Of a DNA stretch of 57,481 bases, positions 1 to 51,843 are shown piece after piece. How positions within the stretch are numbered: position 1 is the stretch's first letter; each line of letters begins with the position of its first letter. Source of the DNA: Candidatus Campbellbacteria bacterium (GTDB lineage Bacteria > Patescibacteriota > Minisyncoccia > Phycocordibacterales > CSBR16-193); the NCBI GenBank assembly GCA_007117035.1, contig SKHG01000001.1:1-57481 (forward strand). Direction: 5' to 3'. The notes beneath the pieces were generated by a model that saw only the letters and a program-made list of their open reading frames with translations, searched no databases and was not told the origin of the DNA. The translations under genes and the position numbers were made by a program.

Positions 1-132
1 ACTTGAACCGAGGGCAGGCGAAGCCGGTTGAAAACCGTACTGCCCGAGTGGGGGTCGAGGGAGTGAGATATTTTTAAGTTCGTAGAACGCAGAAAATATC
101 CACGAGAGTGACCAAGTCCTAGTGGGCGGACA
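1..132. repeat. GC-rich structured element bounded by tRNA-3'-end-like inverted sequence (left end cut off by the window)
   Basis: ACTTGAACC (1-9) is the reverse complement of a tRNA T-arm GGTTCAAGT. CAAGTCCTAGTGGGCGGACA (113-132) reads as T-loop/T-stem/acceptor 3' strand. Nested hairpins 12-45 and 63-103 carry GAA/GTA triloops. Confidence 0.5.
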
Positions 133-142
133 ATTAATAAAT

Positions 143-167
143 TAGTCTGGTACGAAGTATCAGGCTA
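143..167. terminator. Hairpin downstream of holA, probable terminator
   Basis: TAGTCTGGTAC-GAA-GTATCAGGCTA inverted repeat flanked by T/A-rich sequence. Confidence 0.5.
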
Positions 168-181
168 TTTTATTTATCCGA

Positions 182-4384: not shown

Positions 4385-4460
4385 AATTCCTCCTTTTTTG
4401 TTTTTGTTTTTGTTTTAAAGAACTAGAATATAGTATACAACTAACATCTTACTTTGTCAA
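4385..4460 (-). promoter_or_regulatory. sigma70 promoter, boxA-like motif and RBS
   Basis: TTGACA (4460-4455), 17 nt, TATACT (4437-4432), then GTTCTTTAAAA, an A-tract and AAGGAGG-AATT-ATG. Confidence 0.8.
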
Positions 4461-4467
4461 TAAGAAA

Positions 4468-4512
4468 ACCGGCAACCTGATTCTGTCTTTGACAGAATCA
4501 AGATTGCCGGTT
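4468..4512. terminator. Long hairpin/terminator between the two lipoprotein genes
   Basis: AACCGGCAAcCTGATTCTGTC-loop-GACAGAATCAAGATTGCCGGTT, ~20-bp imperfect inverted repeat. Confidence 0.75.
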
Positions 4513-4521
4513 GTTTAACCA

Positions 4522-8702: not shown

Positions 8703-9701
8703 TTAAATTTTGTGATTAAGGTGTTCATATGCTTTTGCAGTTGCAACTCGACCTCGAGGTGTTCGCTCCAAAAAACCAATCTGTAATAAATATGGCTCAT
8801 TAAACTCTTCAATAGTTGAGTACTCTTCCGAAAGAGATGCGGCTAAGGTGCCAACTCCCACCGGACCACCAGAAAATTTATCAATCAAAGTGTTTAAAAT
8901 AACACGATCAGACCTAAGTAGTCCTAACTCATCGATTTCCAAGAGTGAAAAAGTTTCAATTACACCTTTTAAATTCAAAGAAGTGTGCTTGTTAACTTGT
9001 GCAAAGTCTCGACAACGCTTTAAAAGATAATTAGCTGAACGTGGAGTTCCACGACTTCTTTTGGCAATCTCTTTTGACGCATCTTCATCGATATCAACAC
9101 CCAAAATCTCTGATGATCTGTTAATGATTCTTTGTATCTCCTCTTCGTTATAAAACTCCAGACGAAAAACCCCTCCAGAAAAACGACTTCTAAGAGGTGA
9201 AGAAACCATAGCAACTTTAGTAGTTGCGGCTATTAGAGTAAATGGTGGTAGTTCAAGTTGGATTGTTCGTGCTGAAGGTCCTTTACCAAGAACAATGTCT
9301 AACACACCAGACTCCATGGCTGGATACATCACCTCTTCAACACTTTTATTTAAACGATGAACCTCATCTATAAAAAGAGTATCTCCAGCAGAGAGGTTGG
9401 TTAAAATAGAAGCCAGATCTCCAACCTTCTCGATTGCTGGACCAGAAGTTATTTTAAGAGGACAGTTACTCTCCTTTGAAACAAGATGTGCGAGGGTAGT
9501 TTTTCCTAAACCTGGTGGGCCGTAGAAAAGGATATGCTCTGGTGGATGGTTTCGCTCTTTAGCAGCTTGTAATAAGATAGAAAGATTTTTTTTTATACTT
9601 TCTTGCCCAACATAATCACTCCAATGATCAGGTCGAAGTGTCGAATCTAGAAAACCACTGTTGTCTTGATTTATTTTTGAAATAGAATTATCACTTGACA
9701 T
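8703..9701 (-). CDS. ruvB: Holliday junction branch-migration helicase RuvB
   Basis: LRP, GPPGLGKTTLA, FIDEVHR, SRGTPR and RTPRGR motifs. Confidence 0.97.
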   Translation of the reverse strand: MSSDNSISKINQDNSGFLDSTLRPDHWSDYVGQESIKKNLSILLQAAKERNHPPEHILFYGPPGLGKTTLAHLVSKESNCPLKITSGPAIEKVGDLASILTNLSAGDTLFIDEVHRLNKSVEEVMYPAMESGVLDIVLGKGPSARTIQLELPPFTLIAATTKVAMVSSPLRSRFSGGVFRLEFYNEEEIQRIINRSSEILGVDIDEDASKEIAKRSRGTPRSANYLLKRCRDFAQVNKHTSLNLKGVIETFSLLEIDELGLLRSDRVILNTLIDKFSGGPVGVGTLAASLSEEYSTIEEFNEPYLLQIGFLERTPRGRVATAKAYEHLNHKI

Positions 9702-9723
9702 AGTTTTTTTTTCGTGTTAACCT
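9695..9723 (+). promoter_or_regulatory. sigma70 promoter for the intergenic structured RNA, overlapping the ruvB start codon
   Basis: TTGACA (9695-9700), 17 nt, TGt-TAACCT (9718-9723). Confidence 0.6.
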
Positions 9724-9759
9724 TTTGGAAGTTCAAGAAATTTGAAACATTTTCCAAAC

Positions 9760-9957
9760 ACTCCATATTAAACACATCTAAGCAACGGCCTAGCCCTCTG
9801 ATACTGTGCGTGACCAATATTAAAACGTGCGTAGTATCAGAGGGCCGGGTTTAGTGTTTACCTTCGAGGATGTCTTGGTTTCGACTGAGTCACACCTTAG
9901 AAGTAAACTCTTTGTTAATACCAATTTTTCGTTGCTTAGAGATGTTTGATATTGAGT
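9760..9957 (+). ncRNA. Unidentified highly structured ~200-nt RNA (three-way junction)
   Basis: Closing helix 9760-9787/9930-9957; hairpin 9793-9845; UUCG-capped hairpin 9856-9908; many G-U pairs work only on the + strand; upstream promoter; no ORF in the track. Confidence 0.7.
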
Positions 9958-10160
9958 AATAAAAAAATTTAACAATTACTCTAATTAAAAATCTCTTTTT
10001 GAATTATCTACCAAACAGATATTTTTGGCAACCTTTTTTTTAGATTGGTTGTTTTGTTCTATGTTAGGTTATAGTACTATTTAATTATAAGTTATCTAAA
10101 AAACAACCCTTTTCAACAACTTATCTATATATTAATATACTAATCATCTTTTATAAAAAA

Positions 10161-12656
10161 ATGAAAAAAATTAAGAAAAAAATATTTAAAATAGTTCTTT
10201 ATCTTCTAGGAATAGCAATTATTATTGGTATTTTTATGCTAGGTATTTTTGCGTTATGGATTTCTAATATGCAGATTCCAAATTTAGACGCCTTTGAAGA
10301 AAGAAGAGTGGATCAATCGAGTAAAATATTTGACAGAACTGGAGAAATTTTACTTTTTGATGTTTTTGAAAACACAAAAAGAACTGTTGTACCTTTCGAA
10401 GAAATATCTGAAAATATTAAAAACGCCACTATAGCGATTGAGGACAGTAATTTTTACAACCATCGTGGAATAGACTTCAGAGGAATAGTTAGAGCTGTCG
10501 GTGTTAACATTTCAGAACAAGATCTAAAACAAGGTGGTTCTACCATCACCCAGCAAGTTGTTAAAAACTCTGTTTTAACCTCTGATAAAAAAATATCACG
10601 AAAGGTGAAGGAGTGGATTTTCTCAATTAGACTTGAGAGAGTTTTAGAAAAAGACGATATATTAAACATCTATTTAAACGAAAGCCCTTATGGTGGAAGT
10701 ATTTATGGTGTCGAACAAGCTTCTATTTCTTTTTTTGGTAAAACAGCTTCTGATGTTTCAATTGCAGAAGCAGCATATTTAGCAGCTTTACCTAAAGCAC
10801 CAACGACTCTTTCACCGTACGGACAAAACAAAGAAATGTTAGATAGTAGGAAAAATTTAGTTCTTCGTGAGATGTTGAGACATAATTTTGTTTCTGAAAA
10901 TGAATATCAAGAAGCACTACAAGAGAGAGTTAAGTTTCTTCCTAGAGATGAAGGAGGTATAAAAGCACCTCATTTTGTTATGTATGTTAAAGAATACCTA
11001 GAAGAAGAGTTTGGTAGAGATGTTTTAGAACAACAAGGTTTAAAAATAATAACTACTTTAGATTACCCACTCCAGATAGAAGCAGAAGAGGTTGCATTAA
11101 AATATGCGCTTTCCAACAAAGATAGATTTGACTCTGAAAATGTTGCAATCTCGGTAATAGATCCTAAGACAGGTGAAATTTTGGTCATGGTTGGTTCTCG
11201 GGATTATTTCGATTCAGAGATAGATGGCAACTATAATGTAACCACAGCAAAAAGACAGCCTGGTTCAGCTTTCAAACCTTTTGCTTATGCTGAAGCTTTC
11301 AACAAAGGATACACCCCAAACACAGTCTTGTTTGATTTAAGAACCCAATTCTCTGCTAGGTGTTCACCTCTAAACTTATCAAGTCTAGATGGTTGCTACT
11401 CACCACAAAATTACGATATGAATTTTAGAGGTCCAATGACAATGCGAGATGCTTTAGCTCAATCTGTTAACGTCCCAGCTGTTAAAACCCTATACTTGGC
11501 TGGAATAAGGGACACAGCTAGACTTGCCGAAAGAATGGGAGTTTCAGGACTAAGTAATGATTTAGAAAGATTTGGTTTAACTTTAGTTCTTGGTGGTGGA
11601 GAAGTTTCATTACTTGAAATAACTGCTGGTTATGGTGTTTTTGCAAACGAAGGTATAAAAGTTGAAATTTCACCTATTTTAGAAGTTATAGACAAAAACG
11701 GAAACATTTTAATTAAAAAAGAAAAAAATGAAGAAAAAGTTCTTTCAAAAGATGTTGCTTTAATGGTCTCTGATATTCTATCCGACAATGTCGCTCGTAC
11801 CCCACTATTTGGTAGTAACTCTCTACTACATTTCCCAAATAGAGATGTCGCTGTTAAAACAGGAACAACTAATGATTACAGAGATGCGTGGATAATTGGC
11901 TATACTCCTTCAATTGTTGTTGGTGCTTGGGCTGGAAACAACGACAACAGATCAATGAACCAAGAAATTGCTGGAATGGTTGTGGCTCCGTTGTGGAATG
12001 AGTATATGAAAACTGTTTTAAGTGAAACCCAGAACACTTTTTTCCCTGCCCCACCTCAAGAAAACTCATTTAATCTTAAGCCAGTCTTAAGAGGTGTTTG
12101 GTTGGGTGGAGAGTCTTATTTAATAGATACAATTTCAGGTAAGTTAGCAACAAGATACACACCAGAAGAAACTATTAAAGAAATTGTAACTGGTGGTGTT
12201 CACTCTATTCTGCACTGGGTGGATAGAAAAGACCCCAGAGGACCTGTTCCGACCAACCCACACAAAGATGACCAGTACGAGCTTTGGGAGTCACCTGTGC
12301 GATTGTGGGTTGAAAGACAAGGTATAACTCCTATAACAAATGTAGATATTCCAGACGAAGAAGATGATGTTCATTTGCCAGTTTTTTTTCCTGAGGTTTT
12401 AATAACTAAACCATCCAACAACGAAACTGTTTCTTATCCAATAAACATAGAGATAGACTACGCAGGACACAACCCTCTATCTAGAATAGATGTTTTGGTT
12501 AACGAAACTGTTATTAGAACTTTTGAAAATAGTTCTATGAGAAACATAGCTATTCCTTTAGACAACTATATTGGTGAGGAAATAACCCTAACTGTTGTTG
12601 TTTATGACACTGTTTTAAACAAAAACAAAGATTCTATTACTGTGTTTGTTGAATAA
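10161..12656 (+). CDS. Class A penicillin-binding protein (PBP1A family) with C-terminal Ig-like domain
   Basis: EDSNFYNHRG, QGGSTITQQ, RKVKE, SAFK (SxxK), SVN and KTGT motifs; N-terminal TM anchor. Confidence 0.95.
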   Translation: MKKIKKKIFKIVLYLLGIAIIIGIFMLGIFALWISNMQIPNLDAFEERRVDQSSKIFDRTGEILLFDVFENTKRTVVPFEEISENIKNATIAIEDSNFYNHRGIDFRGIVRAVGVNISEQDLKQGGSTITQQVVKNSVLTSDKKISRKVKEWIFSIRLERVLEKDDILNIYLNESPYGGSIYGVEQASISFFGKTASDVSIAEAAYLAALPKAPTTLSPYGQNKEMLDSRKNLVLREMLRHNFVSENEYQEALQERVKFLPRDEGGIKAPHFVMYVKEYLEEEFGRDVLEQQGLKIITTLDYPLQIEAEEVALKYALSNKDRFDSENVAISVIDPKTGEILVMVGSRDYFDSEIDGNYNVTTAKRQPGSAFKPFAYAEAFNKGYTPNTVLFDLRTQFSARCSPLNLSSLDGCYSPQNYDMNFRGPMTMRDALAQSVNVPAVKTLYLAGIRDTARLAERMGVSGLSNDLERFGLTLVLGGGEVSLLEITAGYGVFANEGIKVEISPILEVIDKNGNILIKKEKNEEKVLSKDVALMVSDILSDNVARTPLFGSNSLLHFPNRDVAVKTGTTNDYRDAWIIGYTPSIVVGAWAGNNDNRSMNQEIAGMVVAPLWNEYMKTVLSETQNTFFPAPPQENSFNLKPVLRGVWLGGESYLIDTISGKLATRYTPEETIKEIVTGGVHSILHWVDRKDPRGPVPTNPHKDDQYELWESPVRLWVERQGITPITNVDIPDEEDDVHLPVFFPEVLITKPSNNETVSYPINIEIDYAGHNPLSRIDVLVNETVIRTFENSSMRNIAIPLDNYIGEEITLTVVVYDTVLNKNKDSITVFVE

Positions 12657-23072: not shown

Positions 23073-23714
23073 TTATTTTATTTTATTCTTTTTAAAAGCT
23101 GATCTTTCTTCTCCTGGATTGAAAAGAGAAAAGAATAGTTCTATTAGTTCATCGTTTTTTAACCTAACAGTTCTGAGTCCTGTTCTAGAAAGACCTTGTT
23201 CAACAACCGAAACCCTGTGACTCAGTTGAATTTTTTGTTCTTCAAGTGATGCAGCTTCATCTTCTGTGCTTTCTTTCTTACCTAGAAAAGAAAGAAATCC
23301 ACCAGACTTACCTTTAAAGAAGGAGTTGTAAGGTACTACAACAAAAAATGTTTTTGTCATAATATTAACGTTTTGTGTAAAGTTTTTGATAAACTCCATA
23401 TATTCTAGAGTTTGAATTTTCAGAAGCTCGTTTTCTTGGTGCTCGTACTGTTCTCTTAAAAGTTCTAGGTACGGGTTAATATCCATCTCTCTGGATCTAA
23501 TAAATATCTGCATAGAAAAGTCTAGTGTGTTCAAAAAGTTTTGGAACTGCATCAAGACTGCGTTTCTCTCTCCTTCAGACTTTAGAGCAAAGTTTATAGA
23601 TGAAACCATTATAATCGATCGTAGAGATCCATCATCTAAGATTAGAGCTTCACCGCTAACCTCTTTAATAGGAACAAATTTTTGTGCCGATTCTGTTTTT
23701 TTAGTCTGAGCCAT
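23073..23714 (-). CDS. TraC-like protein (stand-alone VirB4 N-terminal-like domain)
   Basis: SSINFALKS...FLNTLDFSMQIFIRSR and FFVVVPY; lies between prgI and virB4. Confidence 0.7.
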   Translation of the reverse strand: MAQTKKTESAQKFVPIKEVSGEALILDDGSLRSIIMVSSINFALKSEGERNAVLMQFQNFLNTLDFSMQIFIRSREMDINPYLELLREQYEHQENELLKIQTLEYMEFIKNFTQNVNIMTKTFFVVVPYNSFFKGKSGGFLSFLGKKESTEDEAASLEEQKIQLSHRVSVVEQGLSRTGLRTVRLKNDELIELFFSLFNPGEERSAFKKNKIK

Positions 23715-23778
23715 TTTTTAATTCTAACTTACTTAAGCTTTATTGCGAAATATCGTTTAGTTTTCAACCTTTGGGGAA

Positions 23779-44228: not shown

Positions 44229-45050
44229 AGTTTCATGTGTAACCTACAACAAAAACACACCTCTCAACAAACTCTTTTTTACTCTTGTTACACATGAAAC
44301 ATAACTAAACACCCCAGCTAGATTGTCTAAAGCTTCAGACTCTCTGTACTTGGGGTGTTTTCTTTTTCTGTATTTTTTGTTTCAGGATTTTGATAATAAT
44401 GTTTTACATGAAACACTAACTACCTGTTTTTCAATATAAAAGTACAAATTTTATGAATATTTCACGTGAAACAGACAGTTTTGTTTACTTTTAATGGTTT
44501 TTAGCCCTTTTTTATGTTTCACTTGAAACATTTTTTGAATTTAAGATTTTTGTAAATCCACGACAGTTGGTTTTTCTATATGTTCAGTAAATAGCACATC
44601 TTTTTCTTTTGGATATTTAGTCGGGAACTTTTTTCAGACAATAGATATTGTAAAATAGTTATCCTAGATATAGTTATTCTAGATTAATTTGTGTCGTAAT
44701 TTTTACTAGCTAGTAATTTAATTGCCAATGATCTTTTTTAGTTTATTAAATTAGAAATTTAATTTATGTTGAATTAACATAGAAATTTCTACAGAAAAAA
44801 TATTTAAATCGCATATGTTCTTTAATGATAAGAACTTACTGTTTTGAGTCAGTATAGAAAAACTTAGCAATAGGGAAATATATAATGTTTAATTGTTGAT
44901 TATCTGATTGTTTTGCATAATCTAACGATACTTCATACAACTAAGTTATTCTTCAAAATATTCATTGTTTGTTAATGAATTATCCCCTGTTTCACATGAA
45001 ACAGGGGATTCGTGTCTATTTGATTAGAAACCAATGTTCCACATGAAACA
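44229..45050. repeat. Cluster of seven parS-like palindromes
   Basis: Matches to TGTTTCACGTGAAACA at 44229, 44286, 44400, 44458, 44515, 44988 and 45035. Confidence 0.8.
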
Positions 45051-47729: not shown

Positions 47730-47775
47730 GTTTTTTGTGAAGAGTATGATAAACTTTTTTTGTTACTACGTTGAA

Positions 47776-47848
47776 CGGGGCGTGGTGTAACGGCTAACAT
47801 ACTCGGTTTGGGACCGAGCGACTCCGGGTTCGAATCCCGGCGCCCCGA
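47776..47848 (+). tRNA. tRNA-Pro(UGG), CCA not encoded
   Basis: CGGGGCG acceptor; CTCGG-TTTGGGA-CCGAG anticodon arm; GGTTCGAATCC T-arm. Confidence 0.95.
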
Positions 47849-47936
47849 CAAAAAGAAGGGTACAAAAGTATCTTTTTAGTTCTTGATTATTTTATAATAA
47901 TCAAGATCAATTATTTTTAACTTAATAATTCTAAAT

Positions 47937-48179
47937 ATGTTAATAATTTATACAAAAAAAGGTTGCCCTTGGTGTGTTGGAGCTCTAAATTTTCTAAAAG
48001 AAAAAGGCCTGAAGTTCGAGGAACGAGAAGTTCTTAGCAGTAAAGAGTTTTATGAAGAGTTGGTTCTAAAATCTGGACAAAGTAAGGCACCAACAGTAGA
48101 TCTAAACGGTGAAATTTTAGCTGACACTGACTCTGAAGCGTTGGAGATATTTTTGAAAAATAAAGGGGAGTTAAAATAG
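47937..48179 (+). CDS. Glutaredoxin-like protein
   Basis: YTKKGCPWC active site; SGQSKAPTV. Confidence 0.9.
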   Translation: MLIIYTKKGCPWCVGALNFLKEKGLKFEEREVLSSKEFYEELVLKSGQSKAPTVDLNGEILADTDSEALEIFLKNKGELK

Positions 48180-48198
48180 GTTTCAGTTCTAAATAGTT

Positions 48199-48597: not shown

Positions 48598-48732
48598 AAT
48601 TATTTTAGTTACCTCTTATTATTTATAGTACTCCCTTCTTTTATTTTTAAAAGAGAAGTTGTACACAGTTCACTTTTTAAGCAGTGAAGAAATTTAAAGA
48701 GTCTGTTACTATAGTGTTACTAAACAAGAACA

Positions 48733-49038
48733 ATGTTTAAAAGGTTTCAAAGAAATACTGAGGATTTTACCTGTACCCACTGTGGTTTAGAGGTTTTAGG
48801 TGATGGGTATACTAACCACTGCCCAGAATGCTTGTGGAGTCAACATGTGGATGTTAATCCTGGTGACAGAGCGTCTGTTTGTGGGGGATTGATGAGACCA
48901 ATTGGGTTAGAGACACATAAAGGCAAACAGAGGGTGGTTCAAAAATGTGAAGTTTGTGGTTTTTTGAATAGAAACAAGCTGAATTCTAAAGATAATCAAG
49001 AAACAGTCATTAAGTTGTCCACATCTTATACACTTTAA
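48733..49038 (+). CDS. RNHCP-domain zinc-binding protein
   Basis: FTCTHCG, TNHCPECLWSQHVD...PGDRA...CGG and CEVCG motifs. Confidence 0.88.
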   Translation: MFKRFQRNTEDFTCTHCGLEVLGDGYTNHCPECLWSQHVDVNPGDRASVCGGLMRPIGLETHKGKQRVVQKCEVCGFLNRNKLNSKDNQETVIKLSTSYTL

Positions 49039-49135
49039 TCTTTTTGTTCTCTACTCAGACCTGTTAAGCTTAATACTGTGTTGAGGCGCTGGGAAACCGG
49101 CGCCAAAACATTTTATAAGTTAACCAATTTATCCT

Positions 49136-49312
49136 ATGGATGAGAACACAAATCCAAATCCAGCAACTCCAGTAGGAGATGACAACGAAGGACAAGCTAC
49201 ACCAGCAGAGGATGTTGTTGTAGATCTTGAAGGGGGAGACACTGCAGGAGACGCTCCTGCAACTCCTGCTGAAGGTTCTGAGGAGCCTGAGGCTGAAACA
49301 CCAACAGTCTAG
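49136..49312 (+). CDS. 58-aa acidic, Pro/Ala/Thr-rich peptide (not in the ORF track)
   Basis: MDENTNPNPATPVGDDNEGQATPAEDVVVDLEGGDTAGDAPATPAEGSEEPEAETPTV; 5' hairpin 49085-49104 and terminator downstream. Confidence 0.7.
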   Translation: MDENTNPNPATPVGDDNEGQATPAEDVVVDLEGGDTAGDAPATPAEGSEEPEAETPTV

Positions 49313-49328
49313 TAATTGTTGTGTTAAA

Positions 49329-49363
49329 AAACAAAAACACCCGGAGTTCGGGTGTTTTTGTTT
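49329..49363 (+). terminator. Intrinsic terminator
   Basis: AACAAAAACACCCG-GAGTT-CGGGTGTTTTTGTT. Confidence 0.85.
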
Positions 49364-49415
49364 GGATGAATTAAATTTTGTGATAAGATAGATTAGTTCA
49401 TTGATTATGAATTTT

Positions 49416-49486
49416 GCGGGTATAGTTTAGTGGTAGAACGACTGCCTTCCAAGCAGTAGGCGGGGTTTCGATTACCCCTACCCGCA
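49416..49486 (+). tRNA. tRNA-Gly(UCC), CCA not encoded
   Basis: GCGGGTA acceptor; ACTGC-CTTCCAA-GCAGT anticodon arm; GGGGT-TTCGATT-ACCCC T-arm. Confidence 0.93.
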
Positions 49487-49490
49487 CAGT

Positions 49491-49512
49491 AAAATCCCCG
49501 AAAGGGGATTTT
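49491..49512 (+). terminator. Intrinsic terminator after tRNA-Gly
   Basis: AAAATCCCC-GAAA-GGGGATTTT. Confidence 0.85.
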
Positions 49513-49779
49513 CTTATAAAAAACATAAAACACATCCTTTTTAGTTTAAACATCTTGAAATATAATTATTTTATAAAAACCAAAAGTGACAAAACTTCGA
49601 GGTGTGGAGTTTCTAATTAATAGTATGAGGTTTAAAAAGATAAGATAATGTAATGTGATATAGTATATACACACTTTGGTTTTTGAATGTTATCTATAGT
49701 TTTAAAAAGTAGTTTAAAATAACATTTTGAGTTACTAGTTTTGTTGATTAATGGTTAGAAAGTTAATGTTTAATAATAT

Positions 49780-51405: not shown

Positions 51406-51510
51406 TTTCTCTAAAAGATAAAACTGATTAACAAAAAATATTTTTGAATAAAGTCTTTTTTGTCTAAGGTTCAATTAGAAATTATTAAAATACTTTGTTC
51501 TGTTATACAC

Positions 51511-51549
51511 AAAACAAAAAACTCGGGTTTATCCGAGTTTTTTGTTTTT
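51511..51549. terminator. Bidirectional terminator (hup / 49780 gene)
   Basis: AAAACAAAAAACTCGG-GTTTAT-CCGAGTTTTTTGTTTT. Confidence 0.85.
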
Positions 51550-51570
51550 CCTCTAGAGAAAAAAGTGAAA

Positions 51571-51843
51571 TTATTTCACTGCGTCTTTTAGACCTTTTGC
51601 TGCTTTGAATTTAGGAACATTCATTGCTGCAACTTGAATAGTCTCACCAGTTCTTGGGTTTCGAGCTTCTCGTGCCTCTCTTCTTCTAACTGAAAAAGTT
51701 CCTAGACCTGAGATTGAAACATCCTCTCCTTGTTTTAGTGTGTCGATAATTGAGTTGATAAATGTCTCAACGATCTCTTGTGAGTCGGTTTTTGTACCTC
51801 CGACTTTTTCGTGGATCTTCTCTACAAGCGCTTGTTTATTCAT
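51571..51843 (-). CDS. hup: DNA-binding protein HU
   Basis: MNKQAL, GLGTF, ARNPRTGE and PKFKAAKGLKDAV motifs. Confidence 0.96.
   Translation of the reverse strand: MNKQALVEKIHEKVGGTKTDSQEIVETFINSIIDTLKQGEDVSISGLGTFSVRRREAREARNPRTGETIQVAAMNVPKFKAAKGLKDAVK

What the first reader, a model, noticed from the sequence alone, without database searches (positions are those of the whole stretch)
9695..9957. Unassigned ~200-nt three-way-junction RNA with its own promoter, divergent from ruvB
Seen: a ~25-bp closing helix (ACTC.ATATTAAACA..TCTAAGCAACG 9760-9787 with CGTTGCTTAGA..TGTTTGATAT.GAGT 9930-9957) encloses a ~19-bp hairpin (9793-9845), a ~20-bp UUCG-capped hairpin (9856-9908) and a 19-nt single-stranded linker (9911-9929). 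At least seven G-U pairs work on the + strand and would be A-C mismatches on the - strand, which indicates selection on a + strand RNA. A TTGACA-17-TAACCT promoter overlaps the ruvB ATG, and another hairpin (9724-9758) spans the predicted start. The first loop (TATTAA) could pair with the linker (TTAATA), and both contain ACCAAT. It is not a tRNA, RNase P RNA or complete tmRNA. Size fits 6S RNA but the branched shape is atypical, and another 6S candidate lies at rny. Inference: a novel CPR ncRNA class, or a long structured 5' leader of the PBP1A gene 200 nt downstream. This is the strongest unexplained signal in the window.
Basis: partly seen in the sequence, partly recalled or inferred. Interest (0 to 1): 0.78.

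Follow-up and report, generated by a model that had tools for sequence, protein, structure and literature searches.

The report
Conserved small RNA gene beside ruvB
This is a real, tightly folded small RNA gene lying back-to-back with the DNA-repair gene ruvB; it is an unusual three-armed version of an uncatalogued RNA family found across ultra-small Paceibacteria (CPR) bacteria, and its job is not yet known.

Summary
Window 9760-9957 (+) folds into a 25-bp closing helix enclosing two 23-bp hairpins and an 18-nt linker (MFE -83.8 kcal/mol, z = -9.9). It is single-copy and matches no Rfam family.

It is not a lone oddity. Homologues lie upstream of ruvB, divergently, in all 9 family relatives. 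A covariance model found them in 102 of 151 genomes of the order and 46 of 151 of the class, both underestimates: 16 of 20 apparent negatives carry it next to ruvB.

The usual form is a ~164-nt four-way junction. In a 28-sequence alignment, 44 of 61 pairs show compensatory changes, and G-U outnumbers A-C 225 to 36, which fixes the strand. An exact TTGACA-16..18-TAnnnT promoter precedes 79 of 83 copies, usually overlapping the ruvB start codon.

The window's copy is derived: arm P4 has decayed into the linker and arm P2 carries a 55-nt insertion.

The PBP1A-leader, SRP, 6S, Y-RNA, tmRNA, RNase P, 5S and MITE readings failed their tests or were excluded because the canonical gene lies elsewhere. 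Function is unknown. My best guess is a stable protein-binding RNA. At least seven earlier reports of this scan describe the same family.

The parts
9695..9700 (+). -35 hexamer TTGACA of the RNA's promoter; its last two bases plus 9701 are the ruvB start codon on the other strand
   Evidence: Sequence and ORF 8703-9701(-). An exact TTGACA with a 16-18 nt spacer and TAnnnT lies upstream of 79 of 83 family copies; 58 read TTGACAT.
9715..9723 (+). Extended -10: TG (9715-9716), one base, then TAACCT (9718-9723). Predicted start near 9730.
   Evidence: Sequence. TG is at this place in 69 of 79 family promoters. The hexamer is weak and is not listed by the consensus scan.
9724..9758 (+). Leader hairpin between the promoter and P1. 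It is similar in the nearest genus (L039); its role is unknown.
   Evidence: Folds. The leader runs 7-262 nt from the end of the -10 hexamer to P1 across the family.
9760..9787 (+). P1, 5' arm of the closing helix (25 bp with 9930-9957). Its junction-proximal part, CUAAGCAAC, is the family's conserved block.
   Evidence: P1 has compensatory changes at 21 of 26 pairs in the 28-sequence alignment.
9788..9850 (+). Hairpin at the P2 position, 23 bp, enlarged by a 55-nt insertion relative to the family model. Its loop (9812-9824) carries ACCAAUAUUAAAA, the P4-loop/3'-strand motif of relatives.
   Evidence: The model alignment shows the 55-nt insert in P2. The motif lies at relative position 0.27 here and at 0.75-0.78 in 7 relatives.
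9853..9911 (+). P3, the conserved core arm: CGAGGA ... UUGG / CUGAG ... CCUUAG with a tandem U-G/G-U and a bulged A.
   Evidence: The tandem U-G (27 of 28) and G-U (28 of 28) and the two G-C pairs of the GAGGA/UCCUU helix (28 of 28) are nearly or fully invariant.
9912..9929 (+). Single-stranded linker, a decayed P4 arm. It keeps UACCAAU but has lost pairing.
   Evidence: In the model alignment most P4 pairs are flagged as non-standard and part of the 3' strand is deleted. The whole family f1 lacks P4.
9930..9957 (+). P1, 3' arm (GUUGCUUAGAG...).
8703..9701 (-). ruvB, whose start codon is interlocked with the RNA's -35 hexamer.
   Evidence: Pfam RuvB_N, AAA_lid_4 and RuvB_C. ruvB is divergent upstream of the RNA in 64 of 67 loci.
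10003..10031 (-). Promoter-like site on the minus strand (TTGCCA-17-GATAAT). If real, ruvB mRNA would start here and run antisense through the whole RNA gene. Uncertain.
   Evidence: Consensus scan only: 10 of 12 matches, and the region total of 5 sites compares with 3.2 expected.

Best explanation
Window ~9730-9957 (+) is an independently transcribed gene for a stable, highly structured small RNA. It is a derived member of an uncatalogued RNA family of Paceibacteria (Parcubacteria, CPR).

The family core is a long closing helix P1 with a conserved junction-proximal sequence, plus arm P3 with a fixed motif: a GAGGA/UCCUU helix, a bulged A, a 1x2 internal loop and a tandem U-G/G-U. Arms P2 and P4 make the usual four-way junction but are dispensable. 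The window's copy has lost P4 pairing and enlarged P2, and a sister genus has lost both arms.

The gene is locked to ruvB because its consensus -35 hexamer overlaps the ruvB start codon.

Shown here: the structure, the strand, the promoter conservation, the distribution and the synteny.

Inferred:
- The RNA acts in trans as a protein-bound, nuclease-resistant RNA, with the P3 motif as the binding site (about 0.45).
- Within that, a 6S-like RNA-polymerase partner is the most concrete guess, but it is weakly supported (about 0.15).

The confidence given is for the identity claim (a real RNA gene of this family), not for the function.
For: Fold:
- z = -9.9 on the + strand; single copy in the genome.
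- Homologues lie upstream of ruvB in 9 of 9 family relatives.
- RNAalifold gives 48 pairs, 24 of them compensatory, in 8 sequences.
- In 28 sequences of the order, 61 pairs are 90.5% paired against 37-48% when the partner is slid; 44 pairs show two-sided changes; 0 of 500 shuffles reach the observed values.

Strand:
- 225 G-U cells against 36 A-C (170 against 36 without the two invariant columns).
- Model scores are higher on the + strand everywhere.

Membership, tested independently:
- Model R2 was built without any family-f1 sequence. It hits 9765-9952 (+) at 37.5 bits, E = 1.5e-10 locally, and at 27.6 bits, E = 1.5e-4 genome-wide.

Promoter:
- Exact TTGACA-16..18-TAnnnT in 79 of 83 copies, with an extended-10 TG in 69.

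Distribution:
- 102 of 151 genomes of the order and 46 of 151 of the class.
- 16 of 20 listed negatives were rescued at their ruvB locus.
- At least 120 species records labelled Paceibacterota, Parcubacteria, Taylor-, Zambryski- or Adlerbacteria, or Minisyncoccia.

Not a leader:
- The downstream gene in relatives is a convergent T2SSE ATPase.

Canonical RNAs lie elsewhere:
- RNase P RNA, tmRNA, 5S rRNA.
Against: - There are no expression data. No RNA run was listed as holding the stretch, so the transcript, its ends and its abundance are predictions.
- The window's -10 hexamer (TAACCT) is poor, and no + strand terminator was found between 9958 and 10160.
- Model R1 included the window's own sequence, so its 94-bit score is circular.
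- Nothing identifies a protein partner.
- The junction is tight rather than an open bubble.
- A second orphan structured RNA, downstream of ndk, gets the only 6S-like score in a relative (26.9 bits, below the cut-off). This weakens any argument that this RNA must be the missing 6S.
- The minus strand also folds well (z = -6.9) and may be transcribed as a ruvB leader.
- One earlier report on this family was later marked 'part of it fell'; which part is not stated.
Confidence: 0.8

Rival explanations
1. 6S-like regulator. The RNA docks in RNA polymerase holoenzyme as a promoter mimic, with P1 and P3 as the two duplex arms and the junction (P2/P4 melted, or absent as in the rod forms) as the open bubble.
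For: - Size: median 164 nt, range 108-196.
- Single copy with a very strong consensus promoter.
- Rod-like forms of P1, internal loop and P3 occur in genus g3 and in G328.
- Sequence conservation is concentrated next to the junction.
- No canonical 6S was found: 0 of 61 relatives over the Rfam cut-off and none in the window's genome.
Against: - The Rfam 6S model gives no match to this RNA, even at E <= 10, on the window or on a prototype, and none at E <= 0.1 on 20 homologous loci.
- In most members the centre is a compact four-way junction, with P2 and P4 supported by covariation, not a bubble.
- The shortest members (108-135 nt) are small for a 6S RNA.
- Another orphan RNA, downstream of ndk, scores better with the 6S model.
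Confidence: 0.15
2. Cis-acting module for ruvB. The strong divergent promoter sitting on the ruvB start codon, and/or the + strand RNA pairing with a ruvB (or pilB-ruvB read-through) transcript that runs antisense through it, sets ruvB expression by transcriptional interference or RNase III cleavage.
For: - Near-invariant arrangement over a whole class: ruvB is divergent upstream in 64 of 67 loci.
- The -35 overlaps the ATG in 58 of 83 copies.
- pilB-type gene and ruvB are co-directional, with the RNA on the opposite strand between them.
- In the window, a minus-strand promoter-like site lies beyond the RNA's 3' end.
Against: - A pure antisense or interference device needs no conserved intramolecular fold, yet 44 of 61 pairs covary and G-U pairs are kept on the + strand.
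- The physical overlap alone can explain the frozen synteny.
- A related rod form in another class (G328) has its own TTGACA promoter but no ruvB within 1.5 kb.
Confidence: 0.15
3. Base-pairing small RNA. A conserved single-stranded C-rich element (RCCCAY in the P4 loop of many lineages; ACCAAU, present twice, in the window) is a seed that pairs with G-rich ribosome-binding regions of target mRNAs.
For: - The motif [AG]CC[ACT]A[TC]A[TC]T[AG]AAA occurs in 8 of 83 copies, always unpaired or in a loop. The window shows it in the new P2 loop and, degenerate, in the linker.
- CCCA occurs in the 3' 40% of the sequence in 16 of 83 copies.
Against: - The loop sequence is not conserved across the window's own order.
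- No target search was done.
- The most conserved parts, P1 and P3, are double-stranded.
Confidence: 0.08
4. Structured 5' leader or riboswitch of the PBP1A gene (10161-12656).
For: Same strand, about 200 nt upstream of PBP1A, and no clear terminator between them.
Against: - PBP1A adjacency is unique to this genome.
- In 9 of 9 family relatives, and in most others, the next gene is convergent.
- There is no riboswitch match in Rfam.
Confidence: 0.02
5. DNA-level element: a MITE or REP-type repeat, or a cruciform-forming inverted repeat acting as DNA.
For: A long inverted repeat with nested inverted repeats. Both strands fold better than shuffles.
Against: - One copy per genome.
- Fixed locus.
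- Strand-asymmetric G-U against A-C, 225 to 36.
- Its own consensus promoter.
Confidence: 0.02

Closest known systems
The unnamed 'four-way-junction RNA beside ruvB' of Paceibacteria, as noted by earlier agents of this scan (not a published family as far as my searches show)
   Same: P1 and P3 core sequences, a consensus TTGACA promoter overlapping the ruvB ATG, single copy, divergent from ruvB.
   Different: The window's copy is the longest of 83 (196 nt by the model-hit ends, 198 nt for P1 to P1; median 164). Its P4 is unpaired, its P2 carries a 55-nt insertion bearing a P4-like loop motif, and PBP1A replaces the pilB-type gene downstream.
6S RNA (SsrS; Rfam RF00013)
   Same: A stable, single-copy RNA of about 150-200 nt with a strong sigma-70-type promoter and a long closing helix plus a second long arm. 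No other 6S is detectable in these genomes at Rfam's cut-off.
   Different: No covariance-model match. It has a compact four-way junction instead of a large central bubble. RNA polymerase binding and product-RNA synthesis are untested.
Bacterial SRP RNA (4.5S; Rfam RF00169 and RF01854)
   Same: A rod-like small RNA with conserved internal loops in the distal arm. No canonical SRP RNA is detectable in the genome.
   Different: There is no Ffh or FtsY to bind it. PF02978 and PF00448 are absent from the genome, tblastn with E. coli Ffh finds nothing, and PF00448 hits 0 of 151 in the class sample and 0 of 151 in the phylum sample. Nelson and Stegen 2015 state that neither the ffh nor the ffs gene has been detected in Parcubacteria genomes (PMC4508563, passages read). 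By inspection there is no GNRA-capped domain IV motif.
Bacterial Y RNA (YrlA type) with Ro60/Rsr
   Same: A long helix formed by the 5' and 3' ends, closing a multi-helix junction.
   Different: There is no TROVE/Ro60 gene in the genome and no Rfam Y-RNA match.

Membership tests
Paceibacteria ruvB-adjacent junction RNA (family defined here by models R1 and R2) | Significant score to a covariance model built without the query or its close kin | tested here: met
   R2 was built from 28 sequences of other families of the order. It scores 37.5 bits, E = 1.5e-10, on 9765-9952 (+) against 16.4 bits on the minus strand, and 27.6 bits, E = 1.5e-4, genome-wide.
Paceibacteria ruvB-adjacent junction RNA | P1 closing helix of about 25 bp with a conserved CUAAGCAA / UUGCUUAG block next to the junction | tested here: met
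   9760-9787 pairs with 9930-9957 over 25 bp, and the block is present.
Paceibacteria ruvB-adjacent junction RNA | P3 core: GAGGA/UCCUU helix with a bulged A and a tandem U-G/G-U | tested here: met
   Present at 9853-9911, with one top pair of the GAGGA helix lost.
Paceibacteria ruvB-adjacent junction RNA | Four-way junction with a short P2 hairpin and a paired P4 hairpin | tested here: not met
   In the model alignment most P4 pairs are flagged non-standard and P2 holds a 55-nt insertion. The same loss of P4 is seen in all 10 family-f1 genomes, so P4 is not essential to the family.
Paceibacteria ruvB-adjacent junction RNA | Divergent from ruvB, with a TTGACA -35 on or near the ruvB start codon | tested here: met
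   TTGACA is at 9695-9700 and the ATG is the complement of 9699-9701. The family figures are 64 of 67 and 58 of 83.
6S RNA (RF00013) | Match to the family covariance model at or above 46.4 bits | tested here: not met
   No 6S match at E <= 10 on 9600-10200 or genome-wide, and none on a prototype homologue.
6S RNA (RF00013) | Large single-stranded central bubble between the closing and terminal helices | tested here: inconclusive
   Most members have a tight junction with covarying P2 and P4. The rod forms of genus g3 have a modest internal loop.
6S RNA (RF00013) | Binds sigma-70 holoenzyme and templates product RNAs | not testable with these tools
   Needs biochemistry or small-RNA sequencing.
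Bacterial SRP RNA (RF00169, RF01854) | Model match, and presence of its partner Ffh | tested here: not met
   The best SRP hit in the genome is 12.1 bits and lies elsewhere; there is no large-SRP hit. No Ffh or FtsY was found.
Y RNA / YrlA | Ro60 (TROVE) orthologue in the genome | tested here: not met
   PF05731 finds 0 matches, while the controls ring.
Riboswitch or 5' leader | Conserved association with a downstream gene on the same strand | tested here: not met
   The downstream gene is convergent T2SSE in 21 of 32 tested ORFs, and PBP1A occurs only here.
MITE / REP repeat | Several dispersed copies per genome | tested here: not met
   One full-length copy in 812,790 bases. Genomes usually hold one locus.

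The most novel reading that the evidence does not exclude
The RNA is the RNA subunit or regulator of a so far unknown ribonucleoprotein specific to SRP-less Paceibacteria. It is a housekeeping RNA class of its own, neither 6S, SRP nor Y RNA. Its P3 loop with the tandem G-U binds a lineage-specific protein. Its gene is deliberately interlocked with ruvB, so that synthesis of the RNA and expression of the recombination motor are reciprocally coupled.
Probability: 0.12. Interest if true: 0.85.

Novelty: categorically new. Interest (0 to 1): 0.62.

Why it matters
Paceibacteria are among the most abundant and least understood bacteria. They have tiny genomes and lack even the signal recognition particle. 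An RNA kept in one copy, at one locus, behind a near-perfect promoter, across an order and much of a class, is very likely important to these cells, and it is not in any catalogue.

The window's copy and its family add a natural deletion series. The four-way junction, a three-way junction and a plain rod all occur. This shows that P1 and P3 are the functional core, tells experimenters which parts to mutate first, and tells model builders what to search with.

The work also shows that whole-genome covariance searches here miss many copies that a ruvB-anchored search recovers.

Tried and rejected
- BLASTN of the element against 60 relatives gave only chance-level short hits. Homologues were found only through ruvB synteny and covariance models.
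- Rfam found nothing relevant at gathering score on the window, at E <= 10 on the locus, on 9 and then 20 homologous loci, or on a prototype.
- Expression: no RNA holder was listed for 9700-10000. The one related metatranscriptome, kept as contigs, laid 0 records on 9400-10300. This says nothing either way.
- SRP RNA idea: dropped because Ffh and FtsY are absent.
- Y RNA idea: no Ro60.
- 'RNA in place of RuvA': RuvA is present on contig C13.
- 5S, RNase P and tmRNA are all present elsewhere.
- Resemblance of the P3 base to the GTPase-associated region of 23S rRNA: it amounts to one shared 5-bp helix plus short words, about what chance gives in a 23S rRNA. Dropped.
- Terminator-like hairpin plus U-run in the leader, seen by eye: only 12 of 83 copies have a U-run within 14 nt before P1, and 3 have a strong hairpin there. 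It is not a family feature.
- An IS110-type transposase lies about 900 nt from the G328 copy. This is a single case, so it is treated as coincidence.
- Literature: searched Patescibacteria / Parcubacteria / candidate phyla radiation with noncoding RNA, covariation, 6S RNA, ruvB, ncRNA, RNA motif and structured noncoding RNA. They listed no paper describing this RNA; I saw listings only. The library lacks most subscription journals.
Full report
OBSERVATION. Window 9755-9962 (+) has an MFE of -83.8 kcal/mol, against -43.7 +/- 4.1 for 200 dinucleotide-preserving shuffles (z = -9.91, none as stable). The reverse strand folds less well (-69.3, z = -6.92). The helices are P1 (9760-9787 with 9930-9957, 25 bp), a 5' hairpin (9788-9811 with 9825-9850, 23 bp), a second hairpin (9853-9879 with 9884-9911, 23 bp, UUCG loop) and an 18-nt linker (9912-9929). 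Of 71 pairs, 8 are G-U. TTGACA lies at 9695-9700, followed by a 17-nt spacer with TG at 9715-9716 and TAACCT at 9718-9723. The ruvB start codon is the complement of 9699-9701. The flanking genes are ruvB (8703-9701, minus), with yebC and ruvC behind it, and a class A PBP (10161-12656, plus).

NOT A KNOWN FAMILY, NOT A REPEAT. Rfam 15 gives only four tRNAs in the window at gathering score. On 9600-10200 at E <= 10 it gives only three meaningless matches. The genome (812,790 bases, 81 contigs, 96.6% complete) holds one full-length copy. RNase P RNA (98.4 bits, contig C1), tmRNA (127.5 bits, C66) and 5S rRNA (C23 and C24) lie elsewhere.

HOMOLOGUES. BLASTN against 60 relatives found nothing beyond chance. 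I therefore fetched the ruvB loci of the 9 other genomes of the same family. All 9 carry, upstream of ruvB and in the divergent orientation, a long closing helix with the same junction-proximal sequence and the same inner hairpin motif. RNAalifold on 8 of them gives 48 pairs, 24 with compensatory changes. A covariance model from these (R1) found the RNA in 102 of 151 genomes sampled from the order, nearly always at one locus per genome. A second model (R2) was built from 28 sequences of other families of the order, with none from the window's family. It found the RNA in 46 of 151 genomes sampled from the class and in only one further genome of 150 others sampled from the phylum.

These tallies are underestimates. 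Twenty genomes of the order were listed as negative. A filter-free search of their ruvB loci finds the RNA upstream of ruvB in 16, and two more loci are cut by contig ends. Their titles read Paceibacterota, Parcubacteria, Taylor-, Zambryski- or Adlerbacteria, or Minisyncoccia; many titles carry other or generic labels.

ARCHITECTURE AND STRAND. The usual form (median 164 nt, range 108-196) is a four-way junction made of:
- P1, about 26 bp.
- P2, a short hairpin of variable sequence.
- P3, a long arm with a GAGGA/UCCUU helix, a bulged A, a 1x2 internal loop and a tandem U-G/G-U.
- P4, with consensus CUUUUrrU...AUUrAAAG.

On the 28-sequence alignment, a 61-pair consensus is 90.5% paired, against 37-48% when the 3' partners are slid by 1-3 columns. 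Forty-four pairs show two-sided changes, and 0 of 500 shuffles reach any observed measure. The tandem U-G (27 of 28) and G-U (28 of 28) are nearly or fully invariant. G-U cells outnumber A-C cells 225 to 36, or 170 to 36 without the two invariant columns. Selection therefore acts on the strand opposite to ruvB.

PROMOTER AND SYNTENY. An exact TTGACA, a 16-18 nt spacer (17 in nearly all) and TAnnnT lie within 350 nt upstream of 79 of 83 copies. TG of an extended -10 is present in 69, and 58 read TTGACAT, that is, an ATG on the other strand. ruvB is divergent upstream in 64 of 67 loci; the other three have little upstream sequence or none with ruvB. Downstream, the usual neighbour is a convergent PilB-type ATPase (T2SSE in 21 of 32 ORFs tested). 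The family therefore lies between two co-directional genes on the opposite strand and leads into no gene. This removes the PBP1A-leader reading. The overlap of the -35 hexamer with the ruvB start codon can by itself explain why the pair never separates.

THE WINDOW'S COPY IS DERIVED. R2 contains none of its kin, yet it aligns 9765-9952 (+) at 37.5 bits (E = 1.5e-10), against 16.4 bits on the minus strand. P1 and P3 fit the model. P2 holds a 55-nt insertion, and most P4 pairs are flagged non-standard. All ten genomes of the family lack a paired P4. Genus g3 lacks P2 as well and is a 114-134-nt rod of P1, an internal loop and P3. A rod form with the same P3 core and its own TTGACA promoter, but no ruvB nearby, is the single hit outside the class. 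P1 plus P3 is therefore the core.

The loop of the enlarged hairpin reads ACCAAUAUUAAAA. In 7 relatives this motif forms the P4 loop and 3' strand, at relative position 0.75-0.78. The linker keeps a degenerate copy of it. The proposed loop-linker pairing cannot be tested by covariation, because no relative has the insertion.

WHAT IT DOES. Nothing here shows a function. I commit to the following reading. It is a stable, strongly transcribed RNA that acts in trans through a bound protein. The conserved P3 loop and tandem G-U are the likely binding site, and P1 is a protective or processing helix (about 0.45).

A 6S-like partner of RNA polymerase is the most concrete version (about 0.15). In its favour are the size, the promoter, the copy number, the rod forms and the lack of a canonical 6S (0 of 61 relatives over the cut-off; none in the genome). 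Against it, the 6S model does not match this RNA at all and the junction is compact, with covarying P2 and P4. A different orphan RNA downstream of ndk also takes the only 6S-like score (26.9 bits in G002). It has a structured counterpart in the window's genome on contig C66 (z = -4.1) that shares a UGCGGrCACCCAC word.

A cis role in ruvB control, by interference or antisense pairing, is plausible from the layout and from a minus-strand promoter-like site at 10031-10003. It does not explain the conserved fold (about 0.15). A base-pairing role for the C-rich loop motif is possible in some lineages (about 0.08).

EXCLUDED.
- SRP RNA: the small- and large-SRP models find nothing. The genome has no Ffh M domain and no SRP-type GTPase. 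tblastn with E. coli Ffh finds only P-loop noise. PF00448 gives only 3 weak P-loop matches in 61 relatives, and hits 0 of 151 in the class sample and 0 of 151 in the phylum sample. This agrees with Nelson and Stegen 2015, who state that neither the ffh nor the ffs gene has been detected in Parcubacteria genomes (PMC4508563, passages read).
- Y RNA: no Ro60.
- Replacement of RuvA: RuvA is present.
- Repeat or DNA element: single copy, fixed locus, strand-asymmetric pairing.

PRIOR KNOWLEDGE. No paper describing this RNA turned up (listings only). After I had established the family, the scan's own notes showed at least seven earlier follow-up reports of the same family in other genomes. All named 6S as the closest known RNA and left the function open. 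One was later marked 'part of it fell' without saying which part. These notes are not independent evidence. My tests agree with them on structure, promoter, synteny and absence from Rfam.

New in this report:
- The deletion series (four-way junction, three-way junction, rod).
- The relocated P4 motif.
- The measured false-negative rate of whole-genome model searches.
- The rival 6S candidate.
- The exclusion of the SRP, Ro60 and RuvA readings.

VERDICT. This is a real RNA gene and a derived member of an uncatalogued, class-wide family. Its function is unknown. It is new to public catalogues but not to this scan.

Noticed in passing
whole genome G000; samples of 61 relatives, 151 class and 151 phylum genomes: No SRP system was found. 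There is no Ffh M domain, no SRP54-type GTPase (Ffh or FtsY) and no SRP RNA in the genome. PF00448 hits 0 of 151 in both the class and the phylum samples. This is already reported for Parcubacteria by Nelson and Stegen 2015 (PMC4508563). The phylum-wide zero seems broader than that paper's claim and deserves a check.
   Followed up: partly
G000 contig C66, about 23635-23765, minus strand (L270:330-470); relative G002 C42:18120-18277 (L267:1501-1658): A second orphan structured RNA lies downstream of map-ndk. It is rod-like (-47.3 kcal/mol, z = -4.1) with a promoter-like site in front. The counterpart in G002 is followed by an intrinsic terminator and scores 26.9 bits with the Rfam 6S model (cut-off 46.4). 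The two share UGCGGrCACCCAC. It may be the lineage's true 6S.
   Followed up: partly
L072:1501-1679 and 1700-1879 (G059); also G028 and G143: A few genomes carry two copies of the RNA: in tandem in G059, and on two contigs in G028 and G143.
   Followed up: no
L122:1501-1634, minus strand (G328, another class): A rod-form relative (P1 plus the P3 core) with its own TTGACA-17-TATATT promoter is not next to ruvB. A VanW-like gene lies downstream and an IS110-family transposase about 900 nt upstream.
   Followed up: partly
G000 contigs C23 and C24: There are two different copies of 5S rRNA and of the 23S GTPase-associated region. This means either two rRNA operons or some contamination (3.5% estimated).
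   Followed up: no
window 1-181 (+), 4385-4521 (-), 44821-45020 (-), 51406-51605 (-): Other intergenic stretches fold better than mononucleotide shuffles in a crude scan (z about -4.5, -6.0, -7.6 and -6.3). The gaps at 47730-48198 and 48598-49779 score higher but lie beside or contain tRNAs.
   Followed up: no
window 10003-10031, minus strand: A promoter-like TTGCCA-17-GATAAT site points towards the RNA gene and ruvB. It would make a ruvB leader fully antisense to the RNA.
   Followed up: no
L267:1747-1931 (G002): A long, near-perfect hairpin region lies just downstream of the 6S-like candidate. It draws spurious microRNA and CopA model hits.
   Followed up: no
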